Part shown: positions 1 to 21,798 of the stretch, piece after piece | How positions within the stretch are numbered: the stretch's first letter is position 1 | How the letters are laid out: the number at the start of each line of letters is the position of its first letter | From: Vicinamibacteria bacterium | GTDB lineage: Bacteria; Acidobacteriota; Vicinamibacteria; Fen-336 | Length of the DNA: 64,000 nucleotides | Reading direction: 5' to 3' | NCBI GenBank assembly: GCA_035570235.1 | Contig: DATMML010000037.1 | Span: 46,977 to 110,976, forward strand | Program-made: the position numbers and the translations under genes | Notes under the pieces: model-generated | Databases searched by the model: none | What the model saw: only the letters and a program-made list of their open reading frames with translations | Told to the model about the DNA's origin: nothing

Positions 1-993
1 GCCCCCGCGGGGGCCCTCCGGGGAGCGATCGTGCGCTCCTACGGCACCGCCGCCGAGGAGGACAACGACGGGGCGGGCCCCATGTACCTCATGGGCAAGG
101 TCCTGCCCGGAGCGCCCCCGGCCCTCATCCCCGACGTGGTCATCCTGACGGAGGGGACGGGCGACTCGCGGAAGGGCGCGCTCGGCATCTACCGGGGTCA
201 ACGCGGCCGCATGCAGATAGAGGTCACGGTCACGGGGCGCTCCTGCCACGGTTCGATGCCCTGGGAGGGGCTGAACCCCTTGGAATACGGGGGGGCCATG
301 GTCGCGGAGGCGGCCCGGCGCTATGAGGCCCGCAACGGCTTCCTCGACCACCCCTTCCTCGGCCACGGCACGCGCACCGCCTCCTTCGCCACCCTCGACA
401 CCCCCAGCGATTGCGCGGTGCCCGAGCGCTTCACCTTCCGCTTCGATCGGCGTCTGACCATCGGGGAGACGCCGGAGCGGGCGATCGGGGACGTCGAGGC
501 CCTGGAGTCGGTAAAGGCCGCGCGCGCGGCGGGGCTTCGGGTAGAGGTCACGGTCCCCCGGTACGCCCAGAGGACTTGGCGGGGCTACTTGGCCGACAAC
601 CCCCAGGTCTACCTCGGCTGGCTCACCCCCGAGGAGCACCCGGTGATCCAGGCCGCTGTGGCCGCTTACCGGGGCGTGGTGACGCCCCACGTCCAGGAGC
701 CTAAGGGCGGGGCCACCGCGGGCGCGCTGCGGAAGGAGCCGCGGGTGGATCGGTGGATCTTCTCTACCGACGGCGTCGGCTTCCCCGTCCCCAAGGACGA
801 TCGCTCGATCGCGGTGCCGGAGGGGAAGCGCTGGGTGGTCTCCGGCAACACGAAGCACCCGCCCATGGTGGGTATCGGCCCCGGGCTCGAGCAGAACACC
901 CACCGTATCGGAGAGTGTGTGGACCTCCGTGAGCTGCAGCACGCCATCGCGCTCCTCGCGCGGTTCCCGAGCGCGTTCGTGACGGCCGGCTAG
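1..993 (+). CDS. M20-family metallopeptidase (YgeY/DapE/ArgE-like), C-terminal ~330 aa; 5' end outside window
   Basis: Frame 1 is open from base 1 to TAG at 991-993. M20 catalytic/dimerisation-domain-like sequence (TVTGRSCHGSMPWEGLNP). Adjacent to an SsnA-like amidohydrolase and a Mo-hydroxylase, as in selenium-metabolism YgeY contexts. Confidence 0.6.
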   Translation, partial: APAGALRGAIVRSYGTAAEEDNDGAGPMYLMGKVLPGAPPALIPDVVILTEGTGDSRKGALGIYRGQRGRMQIEVTVTGRSCHGSMPWEGLNPLEYGGAMVAEAARRYEARNGFLDHPFLGHGTRTASFATLDTPSDCAVPERFTFRFDRRLTIGETPERAIGDVEALESVKAARAAGLRVEVTVPRYAQRTWRGYLADNPQVYLGWLTPEEHPVIQAAVAAYRGVVTPHVQEPKGGATAGALRKEPRVDRWIFSTDGVGFPVPKDDRSIAVPEGKRWVVSGNTKHPPMVGIGPGLEQNTHRIGECVDLRELQHAIALLARFPSAFVTAG

Positions 994-1023
994 CCGGGCA
1001 CCCGGAGCTCGAGAATAGAGCGC

Positions 1024-2208
1024 TTGTCACCCAAAGACCCGGGAGAAGCCGCCCCGAGTCGGGCGCGCCTCGAGTCGATCGACCTCGTCCGGGGCGTGAT
1101 CATGATCATCATGGCCCTCGATCACACCCGGGACTTCTTCGGCAGGCCCGGCCAGAATCCCACGGATCTGGCCACCGCGACCACCGCCTTGTTTCTCGCC
1201 CGTTGGATCACCCATTTCTGCGCACCGGTGTTCTTCCTGCTCACGGGCACGGGCGCGTATCTCTCGCTTCGACGTCGGTCTCCGGGCGAGCTGTCCCGGT
1301 TCCTCCTCACTCGAGGGCTGTGGTTGCTCCTGCTGGAAATCGTAGTCCTTCGGTGTTTCGCCTATCAGTTCAACGTCGACTATCGGGTGACGATGCTGGT
1401 CGTCCTGTGGGCACTTGGCTGGGCCATGATCACCCTCTCCGCGCTCGTGCACCTGCCCCCGTCCGTCATCACCGCGCTCGGCGTCCTCATGATCGCGAGT
1501 CACAACCTCCTCGACTCGGTGCGCTCGGCGAGCCCGCTCTGGAGGATCCTGCATTCACCGGGTTTTGTTCTCAACAACCCAGACCGCGTCGTGTTCGTCG
1601 CTTATCCGCTGATTCCCTGGGTCGGCGTTACTGCCGTGGGATATGGAATCGGACAGATCTACGGCTGGAGCGCCGATCGCCGACGGAGGTTCCTCCTGCG
1701 ACTCGGGTTGGCGCTGAGTCTGGCTTTTCTCGCTGTTCGCGGCTTCAATGTCTACGGCGACCCGGCGCCCTGGACGGCCCAGAACAGCGCGACCCGCACC
1801 GTGCTTTCGTTCCTGAACACCACCAAATACCCGCCCTCGCTGCTATTCCTGCTCATGACGCTCGGTCCGACGATGATCTTCCTGTGGTCCGTGGACCATG
1901 GCTCGCCGCGACTCCTTCGGCCCGCGCTCATCATCGGCAGAGTGCCGTTGTTCTATTTCATCCTTCACTTTTCCCTCATCCACGCCCTCGCCGTCGCTGT
2001 CTGCATCGTACGGTACGGATCAGGCCATTGGATGTTCGAGTCGCCCGACCTTGCGAACTATCCCTTCACCGCACCGCCGGACTGGGGATACTCGCTGCCG
2101 CTCGTCTGTCTGGTGTGGGTGTTTGTAGTGGTGGCAATGTTCCCCCTCTGCAGGTGGTACGCGGAGTTGAAGCAGGGGCGGCGCGAGGCTTGGCTCAGCT
2201 ACCTCTAA
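1024..2208 (+). CDS. DUF1624/HGSNAT-like acyltransferase-family polytopic membrane protein
   Basis: 394-aa ORF with a TTG start. N-terminal SIDLVRGVIMIIMALDH motif is typical of DUF1624. About 10 hydrophobic helices. Confidence 0.6.
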   Translation: MSPKDPGEAAPSRARLESIDLVRGVIMIIMALDHTRDFFGRPGQNPTDLATATTALFLARWITHFCAPVFFLLTGTGAYLSLRRRSPGELSRFLLTRGLWLLLLEIVVLRCFAYQFNVDYRVTMLVVLWALGWAMITLSALVHLPPSVITALGVLMIASHNLLDSVRSASPLWRILHSPGFVLNNPDRVVFVAYPLIPWVGVTAVGYGIGQIYGWSADRRRRFLLRLGLALSLAFLAVRGFNVYGDPAPWTAQNSATRTVLSFLNTTKYPPSLLFLLMTLGPTMIFLWSVDHGSPRLLRPALIIGRVPLFYFILHFSLIHALAVAVCIVRYGSGHWMFESPDLANYPFTAPPDWGYSLPLVCLVWVFVVVAMFPLCRWYAELKQGRREAWLSYL

Positions 2209-2264
2209 CGCACCGTAGTCTCCTCTGGAGCTCGTCTGCGAATCAGAAGTTCTTCCGCACTCTC

Positions 2265-3554
2265 TTAGAGCCGCTCGATCCGGCCCCATAGCGCCTCCGC
2301 CGCGGCCCGGGCGCGGGCAAACACGGCGTCCGCGTCCACGGTCACCAGCCGGCGGTCCCGCACCACCCAACGGCCGCGGACCAGGACCGACCGGAGGTGG
2401 CTGCGGTCCAGGCCGAAGAGGAGGTGACCGCCCAGGTTCTCGGCCCGGAAGGGGGTCGGAGACGGGTAGTCGAAGACGCCGAGGTCGGCGGGGCCGCCCC
2501 TGTCCAGGGAGCCGAAGGGCAGGCCGAAGAGGGCGGCGGCGAGCCGCTGCCCGCCGGCCAGGAGGCGGAGGGTCGCTCCGACCGCGTCCTTTCGCCCCGC
2601 GTCCTTCATCTTGAGATAGGCGGCCCGTGCTTCCGCGAGCATGTCCCCGCCCATCCCGTCCGTGCCCAGGGCGGCCTGCTTGAAGGCGTCGGTGGGAGCG
2701 TGCCCCACGGTGTTGTTCATGTTGGACCGCGGATTGTGGGCGATCCAGGCCCCGCGCGCCTGGGCCTCCTCGATCTCGTCGGGGCGGAGGTGGACGCCAT
2801 GGGCCAGCAGGGTGCGGGGAAGCAGCAGCCCGTGCCGGTCGAATCGCTCCACGAGGCCACCCGCGTAGCGCTGCCGACAGTCGTCCACGTCCGCCTGGTC
2901 CTCCGCCATGTGGACATGGAGGCTCGCTCCCGTTTCCCGCACCGCCGCGGCCAGGCGGGCCAGCGTCTCCTCGTTCAAGGTAAAGCTGGCATGAGCCCCC
3001 ACCATGCCCCGGCTGAGGGCGGTCGGGGGATCGGCCAGGAAGGCCAGGTTCTCCTCGATCCCGCGGTCGCGCCCCTCCCCCCCGTTGCGGTCCGTGGTCT
3101 CGTAGCAAAGCACGGATCTGAGGCCGACCTCCTCCACCGCTCGCCGGAGAACGAAGAGAGATCCCCGGATGAAGCTGGGGGAGGCGTGGTGGTCCACGAG
3201 GAGGGTCGTCCCCGAGAGGGCGGCCTCGATCGCCCCCACGAGCCCCGAGAGGTAGATCGACTCCTCGTCCAGGGCACGGTCCAGGCGCCACCAGACCCGC
3301 TCGAGGATCTCCACGAAGCTGCGGGGCGCGCGGGCGGGCCCGGGCATGCCCCGGGCGAGAGCGCTGTAGAGGTGGGTGTGGGCGTCGACCAGCCCGGGAA
3401 GGACGAGGGCCCCGGCCAGGTCCAGTACCTCCTCGCCCGGCCGGGGGGATATGGCCAGGCTCCGCTCCCCGATCGTCTCGCCCTCGATCCTGAGGTCCCC
3501 CCGCTCGACTCCCGGAGGATCGAGAGCGACGAGGGCGGCATTCTTGAGCAGCAT
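2265..3554 (-). CDS. amidohydrolase-superfamily chlorohydrolase/deaminase (SsnA-like)
   Basis: 429 aa. HxH metal motif (LVDAHTHLYS), a later HVHMAED motif and TIM-barrel amidohydrolase organisation. In an operon with two PLP enzymes. Confidence 0.7.
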   Translation of the reverse strand: MLLKNAALVALDPPGVERGDLRIEGETIGERSLAISPRPGEEVLDLAGALVLPGLVDAHTHLYSALARGMPGPARAPRSFVEILERVWWRLDRALDEESIYLSGLVGAIEAALSGTTLLVDHHASPSFIRGSLFVLRRAVEEVGLRSVLCYETTDRNGGEGRDRGIEENLAFLADPPTALSRGMVGAHASFTLNEETLARLAAAVRETGASLHVHMAEDQADVDDCRQRYAGGLVERFDRHGLLLPRTLLAHGVHLRPDEIEEAQARGAWIAHNPRSNMNNTVGHAPTDAFKQAALGTDGMGGDMLAEARAAYLKMKDAGRKDAVGATLRLLAGGQRLAAALFGLPFGSLDRGGPADLGVFDYPSPTPFRAENLGGHLLFGLDRSHLRSVLVRGRWVVRDRRLVTVDADAVFARARAAAEALWGRIERL

Positions 3555-3565
3555 GGACGGTCGGC

Positions 3566-4813
3566 TCAGGAGAGCGGCCGGCCCTTAAGATAGGCGGCCA
3601 GCTCCCCATCGTCCGGGCGCAGGCTCACGGGCGGGCCGGCGGCGCGCAGGGCGCTCTTCACGTCCTTGAGGCCGCTGCCGGTCAGGACGACGAGTGCGGC
3701 CTCCCGCCGACCCACGATCTTCTCCGCCACCGCGCGCCGCAGCCCGGCCAGGCCCGCGACGCCCGCGGGCTCGCCAAAGAGGCCGGCCAGGCCGCCCGCC
3801 TTCCGCATGGCCTCCAGGATGGCGTCGTCGGGGACGGCGACGAAGGCACCTCCCGAATCGCGGACGGCCTTGAGCGCCTTGCGCCAGTTGCGGGGATGGC
3901 CCACGCAGATGCTGTCGGCCAGGGTCTCCGCGGGGCCGGGGAGGAGGTCCCGGCCCTCTCGGAAAGCGTCCACCAAGGGTCGCGCACCCTCCGCCTGGAC
4001 GCCGAGCATGCGGGGCAGTCGGGGGATGAAGCCGAGGGCGTGCATCTCCACCAGGCCCTTCCAGGTCCCGGCCAGCGTGCAGCCATCCCCCACCGCCACC
4101 GCCACCCAGGCCGGCACCTCGCGACCGCACTGCTCTGCGATCTCCAGGCCGCAGGTCTTCTTCCCCTCCACCAGGGAGGGGTTCACGGCTGCGTTCCGGT
4201 TGTACCAGCCGTACCGGTCGCAGGCCCGCTGGCAGAGCTCCCATGTCTGGTCGTAGGTCCCTTTCACGCGGATGACCCGGGCTCCGAAGATCAGGAGCTG
4301 GGCCAGCTTGGGCTCGGGGGCGAAGTCAGGCACGAAGATGACGCAGGGCAGGCCCACGCTGGCCGCCGCCCCCGCGAGCGAGGAGGCGGCGTTGCCGGTG
4401 GAGGCGCACGCCACCACGCGGGCCCGCCGGGCCAGGGCCCGGGCCACCCCCACCACACTCGCCCGGTCCTTGAACGAGCCCGTGGGGTTCCGCCCCTCGT
4501 CCTTTACCAAGAGGGAGCGGACCCCCGCCCAGGCGGCCAGGCGCGGCTCGTCCAGGATGGGAGTCCACCCCGGGGAGAGGGGCGGGAGGCGGGCGCGGGT
4601 GGGGACGGGGAGCAGCTCGCGGTAGCGCCAGAGGCTCCGCGGCCGCGACGCGAGCCTGCGCGGGTTCAGGGTGCGGCGCGCCCGCGCGAGGTCGAAGCCG
4701 ATGTCCAGCACTCCCTCCGGACCGCAGGCCGGGCAGGGGCCGTCCAGGCCGCGGCGGTAGCGTCGCCCGCAGCGCAGGCAGGTGAGGTCGGTGACGTAGG
4801 GCAGCCCCGTCAC
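3566..4813 (-). CDS. threonine-synthase-family PLP enzyme with N-terminal Cx2C...Cx2C zinc ribbon
   Basis: Reading frame lies inside the long 3566..6217 ORF. SFKDR PLP-lysine motif and ThrC-like fold II sequence throughout. GTG start overlaps the upstream stop (GTGA). Confidence 0.65.
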   Translation of the reverse strand: MTGLPYVTDLTCLRCGRRYRRGLDGPCPACGPEGVLDIGFDLARARRTLNPRRLASRPRSLWRYRELLPVPTRARLPPLSPGWTPILDEPRLAAWAGVRSLLVKDEGRNPTGSFKDRASVVGVARALARRARVVACASTGNAASSLAGAAASVGLPCVIFVPDFAPEPKLAQLLIFGARVIRVKGTYDQTWELCQRACDRYGWYNRNAAVNPSLVEGKKTCGLEIAEQCGREVPAWVAVAVGDGCTLAGTWKGLVEMHALGFIPRLPRMLGVQAEGARPLVDAFREGRDLLPGPAETLADSICVGHPRNWRKALKAVRDSGGAFVAVPDDAILEAMRKAGGLAGLFGEPAGVAGLAGLRRAVAEKIVGRREAALVVLTGSGLKDVKSALRAAGPPVSLRPDDGELAAYLKGRPLS

Positions 4814-6147
4814 TCTCGGCGCTCGCGGATGCGGCGGTCGATCTCCCCCGTCCGCTCCTGATGCTCGACCCAGAAGGCGGGGTCCTCTAGGGCGCGCAGC
4901 TCGGCCGGGGTCTTTCCCTGTTGCTCGACCCAGGTGAAGTACTTCTGGTTGTGCCAGCGGCGGCGGACCGCGGCCGTGCCCTCCAGGAGCCAGCCCTCCT
5001 TGGGGGCGCGGAAGATCGCGAGCCGGCGACGCGCCTTCTCCGCGTCCATGGGGCCCTGCTCGTGGTCCAGCCTCCGCAGCACGGAAGGGTAGCGATCGAA
5101 CCCGTCGGTGGCCACCGTGACCACCGCCTGCTTGGAGGTGAAGCCGTAGTGACGGGCGGCGCGGATGGATGCGAGTACGTTGCAGATCCCGCTGATTCCG
5201 AAGAAGTCCACGAGGCCCCGCGCGCTTCCGCCATCGATCCCCTCCGATTCCAGCGTCGCCGTCCCCTCCTGGAGGAGCTGCAGGCCTTCCAGGCACTCTT
5301 GGTCGTCGACGCAGACCAGGAGGTCGGTGGCCCACACGTTGTGGATCCAGGTCACGTGCTTGTCGCCGATCCCCTCGATCCGGTGGGAACCGAAGCCCAC
5401 GTTGAAGAGGGTCGGGCACTGCACCGGCTCCACTGCCACCGTGACCGCGGCGGGGTAGCTCCTCTTGATGCCCTCCCCCGCCGCGATCGTTCCCGCCGAG
5501 CCGGGGGCGGAGACGAAGGCGGCGATCCCGAGGCCCTGCCCCTCGGTCACCTCCCGGGCCGCGGCCGCGGTGCAGTGGTAGTGGAAGCGGTAGTTCCCGA
5601 ATTCCTCGAACTGGTTCAGGATCCGGTTGGCGGGCACCGCCCCGAGCGAGCGCACCCGGTCGTAGATCTCCTTGACGTTGGACTCCGAGCCGGGGGTGGC
5701 CACGACCTCCGCGCCGTAGCCGCGGATCTTCTCGAACCGCTCCGCGCTCATCTCCTCCGGCAGGACCACCAGGGAGCGGTAGCCCATGCGGGGCCCCACC
5801 CAGGCCCCCCCGATCCCGAAGTTCCCGGTGGAGGGGAAGACCAGGGTGTGGGGGCCGGGGGCGCAGACCCCTTCGAGCTGCTTCTCGACCAGGATCGAGT
5901 AGGCGGCCCCGACCTTGTGGGAGCCGGTGGGAAAGCGGCGACCGGAGAGGACCACGATGGGAGCGGGGACGCCGGTCAGGGCCTCGGGCAGGACCGCGAA
6001 GGGCACCGCCCCCTCCGCCCGCCAAGAGAGGTTCCAGAGGTTCGCCGGATCCAGGGGTCGCGCCCGGGCCGCGCGCGCTCTTTCCCGTACCGCGGGGGGG
6101 AGGAGGGAAGGGTCTCGCATCTCGGCGAACGTGGGACCGTAGAGCAT
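4810..6147 (-). CDS. fold-type-II PLP-dependent enzyme (TrpB/cysteine-synthase-like)
   Basis: TGSHK lysine motif and a glycine-rich PLP phosphate loop. Start is ambiguous: ATG at 6147 or TTG at 6183. Confidence 0.6.
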   Translation of the reverse strand: MLYGPTFAEMRDPSLLPPAVRERARAARARPLDPANLWNLSWRAEGAVPFAVLPEALTGVPAPIVVLSGRRFPTGSHKVGAAYSILVEKQLEGVCAPGPHTLVFPSTGNFGIGGAWVGPRMGYRSLVVLPEEMSAERFEKIRGYGAEVVATPGSESNVKEIYDRVRSLGAVPANRILNQFEEFGNYRFHYHCTAAAAREVTEGQGLGIAAFVSAPGSAGTIAAGEGIKRSYPAAVTVAVEPVQCPTLFNVGFGSHRIEGIGDKHVTWIHNVWATDLLVCVDDQECLEGLQLLQEGTATLESEGIDGGSARGLVDFFGISGICNVLASIRAARHYGFTSKQAVVTVATDGFDRYPSVLRRLDHEQGPMDAEKARRRLAIFRAPKEGWLLEGTAAVRRRWHNQKYFTWVEQQGKTPAELRALEDPAFWVEHQERTGEIDRRIRERRE

Positions 6148-6658
6148 GGGGGCCCAAAAGCATGGACGAGGCGCTCCCCACAATCAAGCCGCAGCCCGGG
6201 AAGTGGGTCCGTCTCAAACTGACCCACGACCCGAATGACCCGGGACAACCGGCACCCCCCCGGAAGCCCGGGCGGTTTATTCCGCTCTCGTTTTGGCCTG
6301 TCCTGAGTTACTGGCCTGCACTCTTGAGCCGGAGCCGCCGAACTCGGAAAGGCGAATCTGGAGGCCCGAGCGCGAAATAAAAGACCGGGTGATACGTAAA
6401 TCGACTCGGCAATGAAGTTCTCTTCCTAAGGCCGGCCGCTGCGCCAGCGCCCCCACGAACACCCATTGGGTGCTGGAGAATCTGGCTGCGGGGGCCGAAG
6501 GGTCGGGGCTTCGCGGACCGGCTCGACAACCTCCCCTTCAGGGCGGCTGGCGGTGCAGCGCTCGAGTCCCAAAGTGATTCGGGTCACACACTTCCGATGG
6601 AGCGGAAGTACTCTGATGGACGGAATTGAGCAATAACCTTTTTTGCTCGGGAGATTTC

Positions 6659-7450
6659 ATGAAGAACGGACGAGGAGTTTGTTTCTTGGGCCTGGTGACC
6701 CTCACCAGCTTGGCCCTGGTCTCGTGTGGAGGCGACAGCCCCCTGGCTCCCTCGGGTACGGCCATAATCGAGGGAACCGTCAACGCGGGGGCCGCTGTCG
6801 CCGCAATGTCGACGCACACCAGTTCCGCTGGTCGAGCGGCCGCCACAATCCAGGTGGCGGTCGTAGGGATTAACATTTCCACGATCGCGGATTCCTCCGG
6901 CCATTTCGTATTGACCGGTGTGCCCACGGGCCCGGTGACCCTCCGCTTCCAGGGCCCGGGCATCGACGCGAATCTCGGAATCTCCAGCTTGGCGGCTGGG
7001 CAGACTCTCACGATCGCGGTCCAGGCCTCGGGCAACACGGCGACGCTTTTGTCCTCGCCTTCTGCTTCACCCACCTCGTCGCCGTCGCCTTCACTCTCCC
7101 CGTCGCCCTCGCCTTCCCCCAAGGCGCAGAAGTGCTTCGACGTAGGTGAGAAGGCGGAGGTCGAGGGGATTATCACCTCGAAGTCCGGCGGCGGCGCGGG
7201 TAGCAGTGTCGGTGGGGGCACAGCGCAGGCCGTCACGCTCGGCAGCATCACCGTTTTTCAACAGGGCGCGGTGAAGGGTGACTACGTGTGTCAAGTGAGT
7301 GACACAACACGGATCCGGCACGGGAACACGGCCATGACCTTCGCCCAGCTCGAAGTAGGCAACCGTGTGCACGTGGCGGGCTCGGGCCTCGGGTCACCCA
7401 ACGGTATGTGCAAGGTGATGGCGGACGAAGTCATGGTGCAGCAGCCCTAG
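6659..7450 (+). CDS. lipoprotein with carboxypeptidase-regulatory-like beta-sandwich, Ser/Pro-repeat linker and DUF5666-like C-terminal domain
   Basis: Signal peptide plus lipobox (LVSC). SGHFVLTGVPTGPVTLRF motif. SPSPSLSPSPSPSP linker. Sits in a low-GC region and is followed by a terminator. Confidence 0.6.
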   Translation: MKNGRGVCFLGLVTLTSLALVSCGGDSPLAPSGTAIIEGTVNAGAAVAAMSTHTSSAGRAAATIQVAVVGINISTIADSSGHFVLTGVPTGPVTLRFQGPGIDANLGISSLAAGQTLTIAVQASGNTATLLSSPSASPTSSPSPSLSPSPSPSPKAQKCFDVGEKAEVEGIITSKSGGGAGSSVGGGTAQAVTLGSITVFQQGAVKGDYVCQVSDTTRIRHGNTAMTFAQLEVGNRVHVAGSGLGSPNGMCKVMADEVMVQQP

Positions 7451-7473
7451 TCGGGCCGAAGGTTTTCGAGGCT

Positions 7474-7501
7474 CAGGGGAGCTTCCCCTGGGCCTCCTTT
7501 T
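7474..7501 (+). terminator. intrinsic terminator downstream of lipoprotein gene
   Basis: Hairpin caggggAgcuUccccug (7-bp GC stem) followed by ggccuccuuuu. Confidence 0.5.
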
Positions 7502-7815
7502 GTCTCCTGCTCTCGCACTGCGGTTAGATCGTAGAATCTCGCTGCCGGGGACGTTTGCTGGCCGTCAAATCGGCGCTCCCGCACTCTTGCTCTTACCGCC
7601 TCGGGGGGCTGCGCGGTACCTTGTGGCACGAGTACCCCAAGCCACAGCTTTGCTTCGATGCTTCACGCCGGCGCCCGCCGACGCACGAGAGGCCACCACC
7701 GAAGCACTTGGAGGGGATTCGGATTAAGCAAGGTCGGGCAACCAATCGGAACTGAGCCGCCACCGCAGCCCCGGGGTTATGATAAGCGTGGAGCGCGCGC
7801 CGCGCGGAGAGCCAG

Positions 7816-10443
7816 ATGCCCGTCCAGTTCGGCCTCAACGGCCAGATGCGTACGATCGAGCCCGAGCCGGGAGAATCCCTGCTCGACGTTTTGCGCGACC
7901 GCTGCGGCATCCACTCCGTCAAGGACGGCTGCCAACCCCAGGGACAGTGTGGCTGTTGCTTGGCCCTGGTCGACGGCAATCCCCTCGTCACCTGCGCGGT
8001 GGAGGCCCGCCGGGTGGCGGGCAAGCAGGTCCTGACCGTGGAAGGCCTCAGCGCCGAGGAGCGGCAGGCAACCGCGAGGGCGTTTGTGGCCGTGGGCGGC
8101 CTCCAATGCGGCTTCTGCATCCCCGGAATCGCCCTGAGGGCCAAGCACCTCCTGGATCGGCGGCCGGACCCCAGCCGGGAGGAGATCGCGCGCGCGATCG
8201 ACGGCCACCTCTGCCGTTGCACGGGCTATGTGAAGATCGTGGACGCGGTCGAGCTCATGGCCCGGACCCGCCGGGGGGAGCCGCTCCCCGAGCCGTGTGG
8301 GGGGCGGGTGGGGGAGTCCCTGGCGCGCTACCAGGGGTCGGACCTCGTCCTGGGGGAGCGGCCCTACGTGGCGGACATGACGCGGGAGGGCCTGCTTCAC
8401 GGCGCCCTCCTCCTCTCCGCCCACGCCCGCGCGCGCGTCGTCGGCCTGGACACCACCAAGGCACGGGCCGTGCCCGGGGTGCGCGCGATCGTCACCGCGG
8501 CCGACGTGCCCGGCGAGCGCTGGTACGGCCTGCTTTACGACGACTGGCCGGGCTTGGTGGCGGTGGGCGAGGAGGTGCGCTGCGTGGGCGACGTGCTCGC
8601 CGCGGTGGCGGCGGACGACGCGCGCACCGCCCGCCGCGCCGCGGCCCTCATCGAGGTGGACTACGAGCCCCTGCCCGCCGTCCTCGACCCGGAGGCGGCC
8701 CTGGCCGATGGCGCTCCCCGGGTGAATCCCAAACATGCGAACCTGCTCTCCCGCTCCGTGATCAGCCGGGGGGATGCCGAGGCCGCGCTGGCCGCGAGCG
8801 CGCACGTGGTGAGCGGCACCTGGCAGACCCAGCGCGTCGAGCACCTCTTCCTGGAGCCGGAGGCGGCGCTCGTGGAGCCGCGGCCGGGCGGAACCCTCGC
8901 CATGTACAGCCAGGGCCAGGGCGTCTTCGATGACCGGCGGCAGGTGGCCCGCTTCCTAGCGATGCCCGAGGAACGGCTCCTGGTCGAGCTGGTCCCGAAC
9001 GGGGGGGCCTTCGGAGGCAAGGAGGACATGTCGGTCCAGGCCCAGACCGCGCTATTGGCCCTGGTCTCCGGGCGCCCGGTCCTCTTGGTCCTCAACCGCG
9101 AGGAATCGATCCGCATCCACCCCAAGCGGCACCCGATCACCCTGCGCTACACGGTGGGCTGCAACGCGGAGGGGCGGCTCACCGCGGTCAAGGCCCGGAT
9201 CTTGGGCGACTCCGGGGCCTACGCCTCTGTGGGGGGCAAGGTCTTGGAGCGCGCGGCCGGCCATGCCTGCGGCCCCTACCGGGTCCCCAATGTGGACGTC
9301 GAGTCCATCGCCGCCTACACCAACAATCCGCCGTGCGGAGCCATGCGCGGCTTCGGGGCCAATCAATCCGCCTTCGCCATGGAGGGCTGCTTGGACCTTC
9401 TGGCCCAGAAGGCGGGGCTCGACGGCTGGGAGGTCCGCCGCCGCAACGTGGTCTCGTTGGGCGACCTCTCCACCACCGGCCAAGTGCTCGACAAGTCGGT
9501 GGGGATCGCCAAGACGCTGGAGGCGGTAAAGGGCATCTACTACGAAGCGCGGCAGGCGGGCCGGGCGGTGGGGATCGCCTGCGGGATGAAGAACAGCGGC
9601 ATCGGCAACGGGGTGGCGGAGTGGGGCAAGTGCCGCCTGGTCGTGGAGGAGGACGGCACCGTCTCCCTCTATAACGGCTACACGGAGATGGGCCAGGGGC
9701 TGCTCACGGTGCTCGTGCAGTTCGCGGTGGAGGTGACCGGCCTCTCCCCCTCCGTCTTCCGCCCCAAGGTGGACTCCACCTTTGCCCTGGGCTGCGGCCA
9801 GACTACCGGCTCCCGGGCCACACTCTTCGGAGGCCGGGCGGTGATGAGCGCGGCCCGCAAGCTGGAGGCGGACCTCAAAGGGGGTTTGACCCTCGCCGAC
9901 CTCAAGGGCCGGATCTACGCCGCGGACGAGGTCGTCTCCGACACCACCGCCCTGGGGGCTTCCGGGCCCAAGGTGAAGACCCACACCACCTACTCCTACG
10001 CCACCCAGGTCTGCGTCCTCGACGCCCAGGGCCGCGTCGAGCGCTTCGTGGCCGCGCACGACGTGGGCCGGGTAGTGAACCCCGCCCTCTGTCAGGGGCA
10101 GCTCGAGGGCTCGATCCATATGGGCCTGGGCTATGCCCTCACCGAGGAGCTGCCCTGCGAGGATGGGATGCCCGTCACCTTCAAGCTGCGCGAGATCGGG
10201 GTGCTGCGCGCGCGCGACATGCCGCGCACTGAGATCATCTTGATCGAGGAGCCGGAGCCGGAGGGGCCGCTGGGGGCCAAGGGCGTGGGCGAGATCGGCC
10301 TCGTGCCCACCGCGGGCGCGGTGGCGGGGGCGCTCGAGGCCTTCGACGGCAAGAGACGCTATCGCCTGCCCATGAAGGATTCCCCGGCCGCGCGGGCCAT
10401 GAGCGTGGGCCGTATCCGCCCCCGGAACGGAGGCGGGCGCTGA
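7816..10443 (+). CDS. molybdopterin-dependent hydroxylase of the xanthine dehydrogenase/aldehyde oxidoreductase family; fused N-terminal double [2Fe-2S] plus Mo-cofactor domains, no FAD domain (MOP/XdhD-like)
   Basis: 875 aa. N-terminus CQPQGQCGCC...GLQCGFCIPG...CRCTGY matches the two 2Fe-2S clusters. The remainder is a typical large Mo-binding subunit. Confidence 0.8.
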   Translation: MPVQFGLNGQMRTIEPEPGESLLDVLRDRCGIHSVKDGCQPQGQCGCCLALVDGNPLVTCAVEARRVAGKQVLTVEGLSAEERQATARAFVAVGGLQCGFCIPGIALRAKHLLDRRPDPSREEIARAIDGHLCRCTGYVKIVDAVELMARTRRGEPLPEPCGGRVGESLARYQGSDLVLGERPYVADMTREGLLHGALLLSAHARARVVGLDTTKARAVPGVRAIVTAADVPGERWYGLLYDDWPGLVAVGEEVRCVGDVLAAVAADDARTARRAAALIEVDYEPLPAVLDPEAALADGAPRVNPKHANLLSRSVISRGDAEAALAASAHVVSGTWQTQRVEHLFLEPEAALVEPRPGGTLAMYSQGQGVFDDRRQVARFLAMPEERLLVELVPNGGAFGGKEDMSVQAQTALLALVSGRPVLLVLNREESIRIHPKRHPITLRYTVGCNAEGRLTAVKARILGDSGAYASVGGKVLERAAGHACGPYRVPNVDVESIAAYTNNPPCGAMRGFGANQSAFAMEGCLDLLAQKAGLDGWEVRRRNVVSLGDLSTTGQVLDKSVGIAKTLEAVKGIYYEARQAGRAVGIACGMKNSGIGNGVAEWGKCRLVVEEDGTVSLYNGYTEMGQGLLTVLVQFAVEVTGLSPSVFRPKVDSTFALGCGQTTGSRATLFGGRAVMSAARKLEADLKGGLTLADLKGRIYAADEVVSDTTALGASGPKVKTHTTYSYATQVCVLDAQGRVERFVAAHDVGRVVNPALCQGQLEGSIHMGLGYALTEELPCEDGMPVTFKLREIGVLRARDMPRTEIILIEEPEPEGPLGAKGVGEIGLVPTAGAVAGALEAFDGKRRYRLPMKDSPAARAMSVGRIRPRNGGGR

Positions 10444-10502
10444 GCCCGCCGGCCTCCCCGAAGCCAGCCGAAACGCCGGCCCGGGACCAGGCGGAGGATC
10501 CC

Positions 10503-11621
10503 ATGGAGACGCCCCTGCCCGAGGTCGTCCGCGCCTATGACGCGGACGCGCCCTTGGAGCGAGCCCTCACCATCCCCGCTCCCTGGTACGTGGACCCCCG
10601 GGTCGCAGACCTCGAGCGGCGGGCCGTCTTTGGCGCGCATTGGCAGATGGCGGCCCGGGCAGACCAGCTCGGGGAGACCGGACAGTACGTGACCACGGAG
10701 GTGGGAGGAGAGCCGGTGGTGGTAGTGCGCGGAGGCGACGGCGTGCTCCGGGGCTTCTTCAACGTCTGCCGTCACCACGCGGCCGCGGTCATGACCGAGC
10801 CGGAGGGCCAGGCCGGCGTCCTGCGCTGCCCCTACCACGGGTGGACCTACTCCCTGGAGGGCGCGCTCCGGGGGGTGCCCGATTTCGACGGCGTCTGCGA
10901 GTTCGACCGCGCCCAGAACGGGCTCCTGCCCCTGGCCGTGGACACCTGGGAGGGATTCGTGTTCGTGAAGCTGGAGAGAGGTGGCCCCTCCCTGAAGGAG
11001 CACCTCGGGGGAATGGCCGACCTCGCGGCGCCCCTGGGCCTGGGCGGGCTCACCTTCGTGGAACGACGGGTCTACACGTTCAACTGCAACTGGAAGGTTT
11101 TCGTTGACAACTACCTGGACGGCGGTTACCACATCCCCCACCTCCACAAGGGGCTGAACAGCGTGCTCGAGTACAAGGACTACACCATCGAGACCGGCGA
11201 GCGCTTCTGCCTGCAGTCGAGCCCCCTGTCCGCGGGCGACGACAAGGCGGTGGCCGCGGTGCGGCGGGGCGAGAGGGCCCTGTATTTCTGGCTCCATCCC
11301 AACTTCATGCTGAACTGGTACGAGGGAGTGATGGACACCAACCTCGTACTGGCCCGGGGCCTCGACCGAACTCTGGTGGTTTTCGACTTCTACTTCGCCG
11401 ACGTCTCGAAAGCCGCGGCGGAGCGGAACCGGAGGAGCATCGAGGTGGGCCAGGCTATCCAGGACGAGGACCAGGCGATTTGCGAGTCAGTGCAGCGCGG
11501 GCTCCGCTCGCGCGCCTACGGGGCCGGCCGCCTCTCTCTGCGGCGCGAGGCAGGCGAACACCTCTTCCACCGCCTCCTCGCCGCCGACCTTCGGGCGGGG
11601 CTTCCGGGTAGCCGGACGTGA
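10503..11621 (+). CDS. Rieske [2Fe-2S] non-haem-iron oxygenase alpha subunit
   Basis: CRHH...CPYHGW Rieske motif, then a catalytic domain with NCNWK...DNYLDGGYH. 372 aa. Confidence 0.8.
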   Translation: METPLPEVVRAYDADAPLERALTIPAPWYVDPRVADLERRAVFGAHWQMAARADQLGETGQYVTTEVGGEPVVVVRGGDGVLRGFFNVCRHHAAAVMTEPEGQAGVLRCPYHGWTYSLEGALRGVPDFDGVCEFDRAQNGLLPLAVDTWEGFVFVKLERGGPSLKEHLGGMADLAAPLGLGGLTFVERRVYTFNCNWKVFVDNYLDGGYHIPHLHKGLNSVLEYKDYTIETGERFCLQSSPLSAGDDKAVAAVRRGERALYFWLHPNFMLNWYEGVMDTNLVLARGLDRTLVVFDFYFADVSKAAAERNRRSIEVGQAIQDEDQAICESVQRGLRSRAYGAGRLSLRREAGEHLFHRLLAADLRAGLPGSRT

Positions 11622-12367
11622 CAGGCGCAGAACGTCGCCAGTCGATCCGAATGGGGCTGGCCCTGCCCATGCGGGTGCAAGGCTTCGAAGCCGACGGGAG
11701 CACCTGGGAGGAGGCCACCACCACGGACGACATCTCCGAAGGCGGCTGCTCCTTCCCCGTCTCCCGCAAGGTGGAGTTGGGCCAGGTCCTCCTCCTGGTC
11801 ATTCCCCTCCCCAAGCGGCTTCGTCAGTACGACCCTAACGAGAGCGCCTACCGGGTGTACGCCCTCGTCCGGGGCCTGGTCTACCGGCCCGACCACCCCC
11901 GGGTGGGGGTGATGTTCTTCGGCAAGTACCCCCCCCGGGGCTTCGAGGAGCAGCCGACTCTGCGCTACCGACTGCCCTCCGACCCCCCGCCGAATCCGGA
12001 CGCCCCCGACTGGCCCGCGCCCGACGGGCCGGCTCCCCCTCCCGCCCCGGGGGCCACCGCCTCCGAGCGCCGCTCCTCCGCCCGCTACCACCGCCTGGTC
12101 GATTTCACCCTGCAGCAGGTGGACGAGTGGGGCACGGTGTTGCAGGAGGAGCTGACCGTGGCCGACAACCTGGCCAAGGGCGGAGCCCACGTGCTGACCT
12201 CCCTGGAATTCATGAAGGGGGACGTCGTCCTCTTGCGGCAAGCGGGCGGGGACTTCGACACCCGGGCCGAGGTGCGCGAGGTGGTCAGAGGCGAGGACGG
12301 GCTGCGCCGCCTGCACTTGAAGTTCCTGGACCGCGAGGCCCCCGACGGGTTGCTCCGGCCGCTCTGA
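11618..12367 (+). CDS. tandem PilZ-domain protein (c-di-GMP receptor-like)
   Basis: Two RxxxR plus D-x-S/A-x-G-G motif pairs (ERRQSIR/DDISEGG and ERRSSAR/DNLAKGG). GTG start overlaps the Rieske stop (GTGA). Confidence 0.6.
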   Translation: MTGAERRQSIRMGLALPMRVQGFEADGSTWEEATTTDDISEGGCSFPVSRKVELGQVLLLVIPLPKRLRQYDPNESAYRVYALVRGLVYRPDHPRVGVMFFGKYPPRGFEEQPTLRYRLPSDPPPNPDAPDWPAPDGPAPPPAPGATASERRSSARYHRLVDFTLQQVDEWGTVLQEELTVADNLAKGGAHVLTSLEFMKGDVVLLRQAGGDFDTRAEVREVVRGEDGLRRLHLKFLDREAPDGLLRPL

Positions 12368-16562: not shown

Positions 16563-16586
16563 CAGAGGCTCCGGGACGCGCTCTCC

Positions 16587-17180: not shown

Positions 17181-17282
17181 GGTGGCAGAAGCCTAGCACA
17201 GCGGGTGGGGCGTGCTATCCTCACCGGCCGTGCCCATCGCTGCCGACGGAAACCGTCTCTCGCCCCCTCCCCGGCGGCGGCC

Positions 17283-19359: not shown

Positions 19360-19644
19360 GAATCGGCCCGGGTCCGACCCCCCGGGCGCAGGGACCGTGG
19401 GGAGAACAAATGGCGAATGATGGGTCCCGGCCTTCGAAACGCGAGGACACTCTCGGCTTCGAAGGGCAGGCGCACCGTCTTCTTTGACCTTTGGGCGGGC
19501 GCGTCGGTTGGCTGGGTTTTCGCGCGGCGACGCCGGAAGGCCTCGTGGGCATCAGATCACAGGGGAGCGTGCGCCTCGCGGCTCCTTGCGCCGCGAGCGG
19601 TTTCTTCGACGAGCAGGAGGCCCGACCGGCCTCCCCTAGACCCC

Positions 19645-19866
19645 TCAGGTCCCCCCGTAGCCGATGGTGATCCCGCCATCTTCCAAGATCACGGGAACCT
19701 GGCGGACGCCCTTCGAATGGCCGAGCATCTCCTCCAGGTCCGGGGCCGACCGCTTAACATTGCGGTAATCGACCCGGTAGCCTCTGCCGGCGAAGGCCTC
19801 ACGGGCCTCGGCGGTGTAGGGTCAGTTGTCCTTGCCGTAGATCACGACCCGGCGGTCGGCGCTCAT
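19645..19866 (-). CDS. glutaredoxin-like thioredoxin-fold protein with in-frame TGA at the first active-site Cys codon (candidate selenoprotein, U-P-Y-T)
   Basis: Manual translation gives MSADRRVVIYGKDN-[TGA]-PYTAEAREAFAGRGYRVDYRNVKRSAPDLEEMLGHSKGVRQVPVILEDGGITIGYGGT*. This matches the Grx fold (VVIYxKxxCPYC...VPxIfi.G..iGG). Not in the ORF track because the TGA splits it. Confidence 0.5.
19787..19814 (-). other. SECIS-like stem-loop 8 nt 3' of the Grx-like UGA
   Basis: mRNA ccgCcgaggcc[cguga]ggccuUcgCcgg: GC-rich stem, one bulged U, apical loop containing GU. Loop G is about 20 nt after the UGA, as in the E. coli fdhF SECIS. Confidence 0.35.
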
Positions 19867-20780: not shown

Positions 20781-20787
20781 GCCGCCC

Positions 20788-21573: not shown

Positions 21574-21582
21574 GAGACTCCT

Positions 21583-21795
21583 ATGCGGAATTTCGGCGGG
21601 ATTCTGATGATCCTTGGCATCCTGGGCTTCTTCTACAGCGCTTCCCAGCTGTCCAAGTACGACCCCGTGCCCGATGGCCTCAGCATCGGCGACACCATGA
21701 AGCTACCCGCCGGCCGGTGGGACATGGGCCGCTACGTTTGTGCGGCTGCGGGCGGCTTCGGCCTCCTCATGGCGCTCTACCCCAAGGGGCGATAA
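21583..21795 (+). CDS. small membrane protein (70 aa)
   Basis: Strong RBS aggagacuccuAUG. Two hydrophobic segments. Confidence 0.5.
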   Translation: MRNFGGILMILGILGFFYSASQLSKYDPVPDGLSIGDTMKLPAGRWDMGRYVCAAAGGFGLLMALYPKGR

Positions 21796-21798
21796 GGC

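What the first reader, a model, noticed from the sequence alone, without database searches (positions are those of the whole stretch)
1..11621. Selenium-linked purine/N-heterocycle catabolic island: M20 peptidase, SsnA-like amidohydrolase, two fold-II PLP enzymes and an FAD-less Mo-hydroxylase, in a window that also carries two Sec candidates
The neighbourhood recalls the E. coli ygeW-ygeX-ygeY-hyuA-ygfK-ssnA-xdhD region: an M20 peptidase (YgeY-like, truncated at the window edge), an SsnA-like chlorohydrolase, a ThrC-like and a TrpB-like PLP enzyme (DpaL/YgeX analogues), and an XdhD/MOP-like 2Fe-2S plus Moco hydroxylase without an FAD subunit. That region is associated with the selenium-dependent molybdenum hydroxylase system. 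Appended are a Rieske oxygenase, a DUF1624 membrane acyltransferase and a low-GC lipoprotein. Together with the two SECIS-bearing TGA genes elsewhere in the window, this suggests an organism with an active selenium economy using both labile-Se cofactor and Sec.
Basis: inference. Interest (0 to 1): 0.55.

Follow-up and report, generated by a model that had tools for sequence, protein, structure and literature searches.

The report
Variant reductive urate-degradation gene cluster
A soil acidobacterium carries a rearranged version of the recently solved oxygen-free uric-acid breakdown gene cluster, in which two uncharacterised vitamin-B6 enzymes stand where the usual final enzyme would be; the proposed link to selenium is plausible but not shown.

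Summary
The window is the reverse complement of a 180-kb metagenome contig from a Vicinamibacteria bacterium (Acidobacteriota). The cluster continues about 8 kb past the left edge, with a YgeW-like carbamoyltransferase, a short YgfK and a conventional FAD-containing xanthine dehydrogenase. Together these form a variant of the 2,8-dioxopurine (reductive urate) pathway solved in E. coli and Clostridium in 2025.

- The "TrpB-like" enzyme is CysK-like.
- The FAD-less Mo enzyme belongs to TIGR03311 and groups with the clostridial-type FeS-Moco fusions, not with XdhD or MOP.
- The Rieske, DUF1624 and lipoprotein genes are lineage-specific additions. The lipoprotein sits on a 1.57-kb insertion.

What looks new is the CysK-like/ThrC-like pair, which is operonic with SsnA. 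It recurs next to SsnA in at least six phyla and never occurs together with YgeX. The ThrC-like protein has lost four residues that are invariant in solved threonine synthases.

Selenium: one gene elsewhere in the window is a genuine two-Sec UXX-star selenoprotein, so SelD is implied. No selD, yqeB or yqeC lies in the roughly 80 kb read. Sister clusters in Planctomycetota carry plain XdhC, not YqeB. The labile-selenium claim therefore remains untested.

The parts
1..993 (+). M20 metallopeptidase, YgeY-like, 5'-truncated by the window edge (full length 515 aa on the source contig). Proposed ureido-group hydrolase.
   Evidence: PF07687. Best NCBIfam hits are YgeY models: NF009555 161 bits for the fragment and 191 bits full length, below the cutoff of 321. 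DapE scores 64 bits. 30% identical to E. coli YgeY, with insertions.
1102..2208 (+). HGSNAT_cat/DUF1624 membrane protein. A lineage-specific insert between the M20 gene and SsnA, not a conserved part of the cluster.
   Evidence: PF07786 51.6 bits. Absent at this position in the 92%-identical relative L003, which has other genes there, and in L006, L017 and L090, which have only 0.5-0.8 kb gaps.
2265..3554 (-). SsnA-like amidohydrolase (ring-opening step). Last gene of the CysK-like > ThrC-like > SsnA operon.
   Evidence: NF005540 436.7 bits (cutoff 444) and TIGR03314 427.9 bits (cutoff 455.5). The next family scores 168 bits. 41-47% identical to SsnA in the E. coli-type loci returned.
3566..4813 (-). 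ThrC-like fold-type II PLP enzyme with an N-terminal Cys4 ribbon and a remodelled substrate pocket. Proposed to act on the C3 amino-acid end product.
   Evidence: PALP 246 bits. TIGR00260 208.7 bits (cutoff 167), whereas real ThrCs score 302-311. T88A, S155A, R160L, Q164K and N188D relative to four solved ThrCs; the same or a similar change is found in all 27 SsnA-linked homologues. Its GTG start overlaps the stop of the upstream gene (GTGA).
4810..6147 (-). CysK-like fold-type II PLP enzyme, 445 aa, with a conserved C-terminal extension (WHNQKYFTW). First gene of the operon.
   Evidence: PALP 84.7 bits. cysK model 118 bits (cutoff 351). Best PDB hits are cysteine synthases at 106 bits or less. 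Public sources name its relatives only 'cysteine synthase' or 'PLP-dependent enzyme'. Linked to ThrC-like, SsnA and YgeW in many phyla.
6201..7774 (.). 1574-bp low-GC insertion in the divergent promoter region, flanked by 12-nt direct repeats (6189-6200 and 7763-7774). It carries the lipoprotein gene at 6659-7450 (+). Not part of the pathway.
   Evidence: Relatives L003 and L085 have an uninterrupted 97-bp spacer here. The alignments show both junctions, and the repeat is D3. CarboxypepD_reg domain 31 bits.
7816..10443 (+). Fused 2x[2Fe-2S] plus molybdopterin hydroxylase with no FAD domain or FAD subunit. Proposed urate / 2,8-dioxopurine oxidoreductase (DOPDH type).
   Evidence: TIGR03311 914.4 bits (cutoff 830.45). 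Domains Fer2_2, Ald_Xan_dh_C, MoCoBD_1 and MoCoBD_2. The NJ tree places it with the FeS-Moco fusions that sit next to YgfK-SsnA in Bacillota, apart from E. coli XdhD and XdhA and from the conventional XDH of the same contig.
10503..11621 (+). Rieske non-haem-iron monooxygenase of the CntA/GbcA type. Downstream of the Mo enzyme. Found only in relatives of 92% identity or more.
   Evidence: PF00355 plus PF00848. GbcA model 131 bits (cutoff 670). Closest solved structure is carnitine monooxygenase CntA at 160 bits. Present in L003 and L085 only.
19636..19866 (-). UXX-star glutaredoxin-like selenoprotein with two in-frame TGA codons (19824-19822 and 19647-19645). This is the evidence that the organism decodes Sec.
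   Evidence: Coding potential on both sides of the first TGA. Codon-by-codon reading ends ...GGT TGA GGG GTC TAG. With U replaced by C, NF041114 scores 109.3 bits (cutoff 72) over model positions 1-70 of 70.

Best explanation
The region is the window-side half of a roughly 20-kb purine-catabolic cluster in an uncultured Vicinamibacteria bacterium. It encodes a variant of the reductive urate (2,8-dioxopurine) pathway.

Inferred flow:
1. A conventional FAD-containing XDH, just outside the window, makes urate.
2. The FAD-less FeS-Moco enzyme (7816-10443) reduces urate to 2,8-dioxopurine.
3. A short YgfK (694 aa) dearomatises it. This protein keeps the N-terminal domain and the 4Fe-4S dicluster but lacks the NADPH/FAD module, so it probably takes electrons from a ferredoxin-type donor.
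4. SsnA (2265-3554) opens the ring.
5. The YgeW-like carbamoyltransferase and the YgeY-like M20 enzyme (1-993) remove the two ureido groups.
6. The operonic CysK-like/ThrC-like PLP pair (4810-6147 and 3566-4813) processes the resulting C3 amino acid (2,3-diaminopropionate or albizziin). This is the place occupied by YgeX in E. coli.

Shown here: gene identities, operon structure, synteny, the altered ThrC pocket, and mutual exclusion with YgeX.
Inferred: every substrate and reaction, the electron donors, and how the hydantoinase (HyuA) step is covered.
For: Family assignments:
- SsnA 437/428 bits against 168 for the next family.
- TIGR03311 914 bits, above its cutoff.
- YgeY, YgeW and YgfK are the best hits for their genes.

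Known pathway and enzyme roles come from PMC12507026 and bioRxiv 10.1101/2025.04.24.650524.

Synteny:
- In 81 SsnA-anchored loci the same gene set recurs.
- L130 has SeXDH, ThrC-like, CysK-like, SsnA, short YgfK, YgeW and M20 in one co-directional run.
- The PLP pair is present in 37 of 81 loci. YgeX co-occurs in 0 of those and HyuA in 1. Thirteen loci have HyuA or YgeX only.
- In 80 CysK-like-anchored metagenome loci, HyuA and YgeX are each found 0 times. Sixteen of the 26 well-flanked loci carry purine-cluster genes.

Protein-level evidence:
- The ThrC-like protein has T88A, S155A, R160L and N188D (the same or a similar change in all 27 SsnA-linked homologues), while four solved ThrCs are invariant at these positions.
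- The CysK-like stop and the ThrC-like start overlap in GTGA, and an 11-nt gap separates ThrC-like from SsnA.
- G7 clusters with the Bacillota FeS-Moco fusions adjacent to YgfK-SsnA.
- The short YgfK aligns to E. coli YgfK residues 7-458 and 905-962 only.
Against: - No HyuA, YqeA or YgeX homologue lies anywhere in the roughly 80 kb read, so at least the cyclic-imide hydrolysis step has no candidate.
- SsnA, YgeY, YgeW and YgfK all score below NCBIfam's curated cutoffs. The M20 enzyme is only 30% identical to YgeY.
- About 40% of well-flanked CysK-like loci have no purine gene within 5-10 kb, so that family is not exclusive to this pathway.
- The co-occurrence counts are not phylogenetically independent.
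- The pathway was described in anaerobes. Cultured Vicinamibacteria are aerobes (my own knowledge), and a Rieske oxygenase sits in the same transcription direction.
- Nothing here is biochemical.
Confidence: 0.65

Rival explanations
1. One reading: the Mo hydroxylase is a selenium-dependent molybdenum hydroxylase that uses a labile selenium cofactor, so the island is part of a selenium economy together with Sec use.
For: - G7 passes TIGR03311, named 'selenium-dependent xanthine dehydrogenase'.
- The same-architecture enzyme of C. sporogenes (XdhAC/DOPDH) is inactive when purified from a selD mutant, and all gut strains with the cluster had YqeBC and SelD.
- In Actinomycetota loci L038 and L045, selD lies about 1 kb from the orthologous cluster.
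- This organism decodes Sec, so SelD should be present.
Against: - No yqeB, yqeC or selD lies in the window, in L001 or L165, or in 15 Vicinamibacteria/Acidobacteriota loci.
- In Planctomycetota clusters of the same variant, the gene after the orthologous Mo enzyme is plain XdhC (NF045664/TIGR02964). TIGR03309 YqeB was found only in Bacillota L051.
- No known protein residue marks selenium dependence, so family membership is only a naming inference.
Confidence: 0.3
2. The cluster degrades a different N-heterocycle, or runs oxidatively. In this reading G7 is a second xanthine/purine hydroxylase, as its NCBIfam name says, and SsnA, YgeW and M20 act on another ureido or amidine compound. The Rieske oxygenase prepares the substrate, for example by N-demethylation.
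For: - TIGR03311 is named after a xanthine dehydrogenase activity.
- SsnA, YgeW, YgeY and YgfK are all below their equivalog cutoffs.
- HyuA, YgeX and YqeA are missing.
- A CntA/GbcA-type Rieske monooxygenase follows G7 with a 59-nt gap on the same strand.
Against: - The Rieske gene is present only in relatives of 92% identity or more.
- The conserved core across phyla is exactly the set of families of the 2,8-dioxopurine pathway, next to a conventional XDH.
- G7 clusters with the Bacillota enzymes adjacent to YgfK-SsnA.
Confidence: 0.2
3. The two PLP genes are ordinary housekeeping threonine synthase and cysteine synthase that merely sit next to SsnA.
For: - G4 passes the TIGR00260 thrC cutoff (208.7 against 167.1).
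- Its closest solved structures are threonine synthases.
- Public sources name G5's relatives 'cysteine synthase'.
- Some CysK-like loci have no purine genes nearby.
Against: - The pair is linked to SsnA in Acidobacteriota, Planctomycetota, Sumerlaeota, KSB3, a Betaproteobacterium, Actinomycetota-like and Chloroflexota-like contigs, with varying gene order.
- Four residues invariant in solved ThrCs are replaced in all 27 linked homologues.
- Real ThrCs score about 100 bits higher on TIGR00260.
- G5 scores 118 against a cutoff of 351 on cysK and has a conserved 90-aa extension.
- The genes are translationally coupled within the SsnA operon.
Confidence: 0.05

Closest known systems
E. coli ygeW-ygeX-ygeY-hyuA-yqeA ... 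ygfK-ssnA-ygfM-xdhD cluster (reductive urate / 2,8-dioxopurine pathway; Li et al. 2025 PMC12507026; Liu et al. 2025 bioRxiv 10.1101/2025.04.24.650524)
   Same: SsnA, a YgeW-like carbamoyltransferase, a YgeY-like M20 peptidase, the YgfK N-terminal and 4Fe-4S parts, a Mo hydroxylase, and a neighbouring conventional XDH.
   Different: - No HyuA, YgeX, YqeA, YqeB, YqeC or YgfM.
- YgfK lacks residues ~460-900, the FAD/NADPH module.
- The Mo enzyme is TIGR03311, not XdhD.
- A CysK-like/ThrC-like pair is present instead of YgeX.
Clostridium sporogenes / C. difficile uricolytic cluster (XdhAC = DOPDH without an FAD subunit; UacX, UacY)
   Same: - FAD-less FeS-Moco fusion of the same architecture.
- G7 clusters with the Bacillota enzymes adjacent to YgfK-SsnA.
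- The reductase lacks its own NAD(P)H module, as Li et al. note for UacX.
   Different: - Clostridia keep HyuA and YgeX and have YqeB/YqeC/SelD.
- None of these was found here.
- I did not have the C. sporogenes sequence itself to compare.
Chloroflexota SsnA clusters with an F420-dependent reductase (noted by Li et al. 2025)
   Same: The Chloroflexota-like metagenome loci (L111, L126, L133, L134, L148, L162) also carry ThrC-like and CysK-like genes next to SsnA, YgeW and YgeY.
   Different: They use an LLM-class F420 enzyme plus F420 biosynthesis genes and have YqeA. This locus uses the short YgfK. Li et al. scored any PF00291 protein as 'YgeX' and do not mention ThrC-like or CysK-like enzymes.
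Threonine synthase (TIGR00260; PDB 1UIM, 2ZSJ, 2D1F, 6CGQ)
   Same: About 206-215 bits to solved ThrCs. The PLP lysine (SFKDR), the STGN loop and N154 are kept. Same fold type II.
   Different: T88A, S155A, R160L, Q164K, and VGNAGN changed to VGDGC(T/S). From my memory of Omi et al. 2003, T88, S155, R160 and N188 bind the substrate phosphate. I could not verify this in the paper library.
Cysteine synthase CysK/CysM and CysK-like C-N bond enzymes (SbnA; O-ureido-L-serine synthase DcsD, PDB 3X43)
   Same: Fold-type II core. The PLP lysine, an STGN-type loop and a GSAGT phosphate loop align with CysK.
   Different: Only 118 bits on the cysK model (cutoff 351). It has a ~45-aa N-terminal and a ~90-aa conserved C-terminal extension. 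No curated family covers it.

Membership tests
SsnA (TIGR03314 / NF005540) | Scores at or above the curated HMM cutoff | tested here: inconclusive
   427.9 bits against 455.5 and 436.7 against 444. This is just below cutoff, but 2.5 times the next family at 168 bits.
SsnA (TIGR03314 / NF005540) | Genomic linkage to YgfK/UacX-type reductase, Mo hydroxylase, YgeW and YgeY | tested here: met
   L001 gene table and NCBIfam. The same linkage is seen in relatives.
YgeY (TIGR03526 / NF009555) | Scores at or above the curated HMM cutoff | tested here: not met
   Full-length protein scores 191.4 and 160.3 bits against a cutoff of ~321. YgeY is still the best family (DapE 64 bits). 30% identical to E. 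coli YgeY, with insertions.
YgeW knotted carbamoyltransferase (TIGR03316 / NF005538) | Scores at or above the curated HMM cutoff | tested here: not met
   361.7 bits against 453 and 337.5 against 500. Best family by a wide margin, since the next scores 154. The gene lies outside the window (L001 14124-15236).
YgfK / DOPOR (TIGR03315) | Full architecture: N-terminal domain, GltD-like FAD/NADPH module, and 4Fe-4S dicluster | tested here: not met
   The 694-aa protein matches model positions 5-397 of 1012 (387 bits against a cutoff of 835). It aligns to E. coli YgfK residues 7-458 and 905-962 only.
TIGR03311 'selenium-dependent xanthine dehydrogenase' | Scores at or above the curated HMM cutoff, with fused 2Fe-2S plus Moco architecture and no FAD domain | tested here: met
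   914.4 bits against 830.45. Pfam domains Fer2_2, Ald_Xan_dh_C and MoCoBD_1/2 only.
Selenium-dependent molybdenum hydroxylase trait (Haft & Self 2008) | yqeB and yqeC marker genes, and selD, in the genome | not testable with these tools
   None in the window, L001 or L165 (about 80 kb), nor in related Vicinamibacteria loci. The rest of the genome could not be reached. selD is implied indirectly by the selenoprotein.
Selenium-dependent molybdenum hydroxylase trait (Haft & Self 2008) | Enzyme activity requires selenium or SelD | not testable with these tools
   Needs biochemistry. Sister clusters in Planctomycetota carry XdhC rather than YqeB, which argues for caution.
Threonine synthase (TIGR00260) | Scores at or above the curated HMM cutoff | tested here: met
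   208.7 bits against 167.1. Solved ThrCs score 302-311 on the same model.
Threonine synthase (TIGR00260) | Conserved substrate-pocket residues T88, S155, R160 and N188 (T. thermophilus numbering) | tested here: not met
   A, A, L and D in G4. The same or a similar change is found in all 27 SsnA-linked homologues, while four solved ThrCs are invariant.
Cysteine synthase CysK (TIGR01139) | Scores at or above the curated HMM cutoff | tested here: not met
   118.1 bits against 350.95.
Diaminopropionate ammonia-lyase YgeX/DpaL (TIGR03528 / NF006058) | Sequence membership | tested here: not met
   G4 scores 60 bits and G5 25 bits on NF006058 (cutoff 276). tblastn with E. coli YgeX gives only 22-29% identity cross-hits.
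UXX-star selenoprotein family 1 (NF041114) | Glutaredoxin-like fold with Sec in the N-terminal redox motif and Sec three residues before the stop; score above cutoff | tested here: met
   The ORF at 19636-19866 (-) reads ...KDN-TGA-PYT... and ...GGT-TGA-GGG-GTC-TAG. It scores 109.3 bits against 72 over model positions 1-70 of 70.

The most novel reading that the evidence does not exclude
Outside guts, a widespread environmental branch of the 2,8-dioxopurine pathway replaces the terminal diaminopropionate ammonia-lyase, and perhaps the hydantoinase route, with a dedicated pair of uncharacterised PLP enzymes. It is found in Acidobacteriota, Planctomycetota, Chloroflexota-like contigs, Sumerlaeota and KSB3. 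One partner is a threonine-synthase paralogue that has lost its phosphate pocket and gained an Asp. The other is a CysK paralogue with a conserved C-terminal lid. Together they would perform chemistry not yet described for this pathway. Examples are beta-replacement of the beta-amino or beta-ureido group by water to give serine, or direct elimination of urea from albizziin. In this lineage the branch is fed by a ferredoxin-type short YgfK.
Probability: 0.35. Interest if true: 0.65.

Novelty: new variant of a known kind. Interest (0 to 1): 0.45.

Why it matters
The reductive urate pathway was worked out only in 2025, in gut bacteria, and is being pursued for gout therapy. This locus and its relatives carry the same gene families in abundant soil and sediment phyla, but with a different ending and a different electron input.

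- It names two concrete, testable enzymes for the unknown steps.
- It flags a likely systematic misannotation. These ThrC paralogues pass the permissive TIGR00260 cutoff and are called 'threonine synthase'. The published neighbourhood analysis counted any PF00291 protein as YgeX.
- It cautions against reading 'selenium-dependent' from TIGR03311 membership alone.

Tried and rejected
- In-frame stop joins at 15105-17192 (-), 41052-45686 (+), 20581-22380 (+) and 56052-56978 (+) looked like Sec candidates. They are separate genes or have TAG/TAA stops. The TGA at 37320 is an ordinary ABC ATPase/permease junction.
- The Rfam gathering search of the whole window, ARAGORN, and an E-value search around the selenoprotein found no tRNA-Sec, SECIS or riboswitch.
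- I tried to reach the last 9.5 kb of the contig beyond L001. A homologue search returned only a 94% cluster representative on a 4-kb contig. The HpnE look-up was not on record.
- The extension on the right side (L165) showed only housekeeping genes.
- I could not verify the ThrC phosphate ligands in the literature. The paper searches found nothing and PMC7050208 is not held.
- I looked for a common partner in the CysK-like loci that lack purine genes. Their contexts are heterogeneous.
- I rejected the BMC-T shell gene, the Rieske oxygenase, DUF1624 and the lipoprotein as conserved parts of the cluster.
- I did not run structure prediction. It would not identify substrates.

Full report
**What is in the sequence**

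The window is about 70% G+C, so plain ORF lists are full of shadows. Third-position GC and a codon log-odds caller give one clear gene per stretch. In 1-12367 these are:
- 1-993 (+): a 5'-truncated M20 peptidase.
- 1102-2208 (+): an HGSNAT_cat/DUF1624 membrane protein.
- 2265-3554 (-): an amidohydrolase.
- 3566-4813 (-) and 4810-6147 (-): two PALP-domain enzymes.
- 6659-7450 (+): a lipoprotein in a low-GC stretch.
- 7816-10443 (+): an 875-aa 2Fe-2S/Moco protein.
- 10503-11621 (+): a Rieske oxygenase.
- 11651-12367 (+): a PilZ protein.

- The second PLP enzyme is CysK/CBS-like. The cysK model scores 118 bits, the best PDB hits are cysteine synthases, and no TrpB hit appears.
- The Mo enzyme is not XdhD- or MOP-like. 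It passes TIGR03311 (914 bits, cutoff 830) and is far below the XdhD and aldehyde-oxidoreductase models.

**Source and true extent**

An exact-protein look-up places the window on ENA metagenome contig ERZ27253551:k141_2469804 (180 kb), in reverse orientation. SsnA is 92% identical to a Vicinamibacteria MAG, and the nearest relatives are all Vicinamibacteria or other Acidobacteriota.

The 8 kb beyond the window's left edge (L001) carries the following:
- the rest of the M20 gene (515 aa; YgeY is the best hit at 191 bits, cutoff 321);
- a YgeW-like carbamoyltransferase (362 bits, cutoff 453);
- a tandem-BMC shell protein (CcmP-like, 256 bits);
- a 694-aa protein matching YgfK positions 5-397 plus a 4Fe-4S dicluster;
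- a conventional XDH, made of a 743-aa Moco subunit and a 2Fe-2S/FAD subunit.

The island is therefore about 20 kb, and the window holds roughly half of it.

**What is known about this kind of cluster**

Two 2025 papers solved the E. coli and Clostridium cluster as a reductive urate pathway:
1. XdhD or XdhAC (DOPDH) reduces urate to 2,8-dioxopurine.
2. YgfK or UacX dearomatises it.
3. SsnA opens the ring.
4. HyuA hydrolyses the hydantoin.
5. YgeW (with YqeA, yielding ATP) and YgeY remove the two ureido groups.
6. YgeX converts 2,3-diaminopropionate to pyruvate.

In C. sporogenes the FAD-less XdhAC needs SelD, and all gut strains with the cluster had YqeBC and SelD. Neither paper mentions threonine-synthase-like or cysteine-synthase-like enzymes, Acidobacteriota or Planctomycetota. 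One of them scored any PF00291 protein as 'YgeX'.

**Synteny**

I compared 81 SsnA-anchored loci from species-representative genomes with the island's proteins and the E. coli reference proteins.
- The CysK-like/ThrC-like pair sits beside SsnA in Vicinamibacteria and other Acidobacteriota, Planctomycetota, Sumerlaeota, KSB3 and one Betaproteobacterium. ThrC-like alone sits beside SsnA in two Actinomycetota-like contigs. That is 37 loci in all.
- YgeX never co-occurs with the pair. HyuA co-occurs once (L030).
- Thirteen loci, from Actinomycetota, Bacillota and one Deltaproteobacterium, have HyuA and/or YgeX and no pair.
- Fisher's exact test gives p = 0.002, but the loci are not phylogenetically independent.

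I then anchored on the CysK-like protein in metagenomes.
- All 80 loci lack HyuA and YgeX.
- 34 have ThrC-like adjacent.
- Of the 26 loci with at least 5 kb on both sides, 16 carry purine-cluster genes.
- L130 has all seven functions in one co-directional run.
- A Chloroflexota-like group adds YqeA and F420 genes, matching the F420 variant noted by Li et al.
- About 40% of well-flanked CysK-like loci show no purine genes nearby and no common alternative partner.

**The ThrC-like enzyme is not an ordinary threonine synthase**

It scores 206-215 bits against four solved ThrCs. In T. thermophilus numbering, those four share SFK61DR, STGNT88, N154-S155-VNPx-R160-xEGQ164KT and VG-N188-AGN. G4 reads STGNA, NAAVNPSLVEGKKT and VGDGCT. 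All 27 SsnA-linked homologues from the various phyla show the same or a similar change.

From my memory of Omi et al. 2003, T88, S155, R160 and N188 hold the phosphate of O-phosphohomoserine. I could not verify this in the library.

On TIGR00260, real ThrCs score 302-311 bits and the linked proteins 165-209, which straddles the permissive cutoff of 167. Pipelines will therefore name most of them 'threonine synthase'.

In the window, the CysK-like stop and the ThrC-like start overlap (GTGA), and SsnA follows after 11 nt. The three genes form one operon.

**The Mo enzyme and the reductase**

A neighbour-joining tree of 61 Moco subunits puts G7 with the Vicinamibacteria, Planctomycetota and Actinomycetota orthologues. 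It also groups with the FeS-Moco fusions that lie next to YgfK-SsnA in Bacillota. This clade is separate from E. coli XdhD and XdhA and from the conventional XDH of the same contig.

This supports a DOPDH-type role by architecture and context. The C. sporogenes sequence itself was not available to me.

The 694-aa YgfK aligns to E. coli YgfK residues 7-458 and 905-962, so it lacks the FAD/NADPH module. This parallels the ferredoxin-type UacX discussed by Li et al.

**Parts that do not belong to the conserved cluster**

- Rieske and PilZ occur only in relatives of 92% identity or more (L003, L085). The Rieske protein is closest to carnitine monooxygenase CntA.
- DUF1624 is replaced by other genes, or by nothing, in relatives.
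- The lipoprotein lies on a 1574-bp low-GC insertion flanked by a 12-nt direct repeat. L003 and L085 have an intact 97-bp spacer there.
- The BMC-T gene was found only on this contig.

**Selenium**

No selD, yqeB, yqeC, selA or selB homologue and no tRNA-Sec is present in the window, in L001 or in L165. None is present in the related Vicinamibacteria loci either.

A systematic screen for coding potential on both sides of TGA found one convincing case. It is a 76-codon glutaredoxin-like ORF at 19636-19866 (-), reading ...GKDN-U-PYT... and ending ...GYGGT-U-G-V-stop. With U replaced by C it matches NF041114, UXX-star selenoprotein family 1, at 109 bits (cutoff 72) over the full model.

The organism therefore decodes Sec.

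Whether the Mo enzyme uses selenium is a separate question and remains open.
- selD lies next to the orthologous cluster in two Actinomycetota loci.
- The maturation gene following the orthologue in Planctomycetota is plain XdhC. True YqeB appeared only in a Bacillota locus.

A second Sec candidate has a signal peptide followed by C-A-G-TGA at 58820. It has a strong hairpin after the TGA but no family match.

**Verdict**

The island is a member of a now-known pathway family, in a new phylum and with a distinct architecture: a short YgfK, no HyuA, YgeX or YqeA, and a dedicated ThrC-like/CysK-like pair. I rate it a new variant of a known kind, of moderate interest. The selenium-cofactor part is unproven.

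Noticed in passing
window 19636-19866 (-): Glutaredoxin-like UXX-star selenoprotein gene with two in-frame TGA codons (19824-19822 and 19647-19645). It passes NF041114 above cutoff. The source's gene callers would truncate or miss it.
   Followed up: yes
window 57936-58898 (-), TGA at 58820-58818: Possible secreted selenoprotein: signal peptide MKLQILSVGLLLALSAAPLWAGACAG, then TGA, then a 293-codon frame to the stop (called from an internal start as a 272-aa gene) with no family hit. A 9-bp GC-rich hairpin starts 11 nt after the TGA. Unverified.
   Followed up: partly
window 6201-7774 (repeats at 6189-6200 and 7763-7774): A 1574-bp low-GC insertion carrying a CarboxypepD_reg-domain lipoprotein splits the 97-bp divergent promoter spacer seen in relatives L003 and L085. 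It is flanked by the 12-nt direct repeat CCGCAGCCC(G/C)GG.
   Followed up: yes
L001 15270-15911 (just left of the window): A lone tandem-BMC shell protein (CcmP/CsoS1D-like, 256 bits) is the first gene of the YgeW-M20-DUF1624 transcription unit. No other shell genes were seen, and it is not conserved in relatives. L115 has a 49% homologue next to a deoxyribose-phosphate aldolase, 7 kb from a CysK-like gene and an XDH.
   Followed up: partly
L038 4016-4942 and L045 4073-4999: In two Actinomycetota MAGs, selD lies about 1 kb upstream of the YgeY-SeXDH-SsnA-YgeW cluster. This is the only direct selenium linkage seen in the 160 loci.
   Followed up: partly
L008, L011, L013 (Vicinamibacteria/Acidobacteriota): Alternative cluster form. 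An AguB-like carbon-nitrogen hydrolase and a D-aminoacylase-like amidohydrolase (UacY-like) sit between SsnA and the short YgfK, in place of YgeW and M20.
   Followed up: partly
L110, L111, L126, L127, L133, L134, L148, L162: Chloroflexota-like loci join YgeY, YgeW, YqeA, ThrC-like, CysK-like and SsnA to an LLM-class F420 oxidoreductase, an F420 reductase and CofC/CofD/CofE-like genes.
   Followed up: partly
L022, L030, L044, L048, L062: Some Planctomycetota clusters use a PreA-type dihydropyrimidine dehydrogenase subunit (449 bits, above cutoff) plus a GltD/YgfT-like partner instead of YgfK. This is a third reductase solution alongside the PLP pair.
   Followed up: partly
window 3566-4813 and relatives: The TIGR00260 cutoff (167 bits) admits these pocket-altered ThrC paralogues (165-209 bits), while solved ThrCs score 302-311. 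This is a likely source of 'threonine synthase' misannotation in many phyla.
   Followed up: yes
window 27245-36552 (-): Polyamine-looking block: two large membrane-fused spermidine-synthase-like proteins, a small SAM-decarboxylase-like gene, a DUF4178-like protein and an SPFH protein. These labels come from reading the translations only.
   Followed up: no
window 60114-63998: A 515-aa double-length ThyX-like protein (Thy1 domain matched twice), followed on the opposite strand by hopanoid-type genes: an amine-oxidase-like HpnE candidate and two SQS_PSY genes.
   Followed up: no
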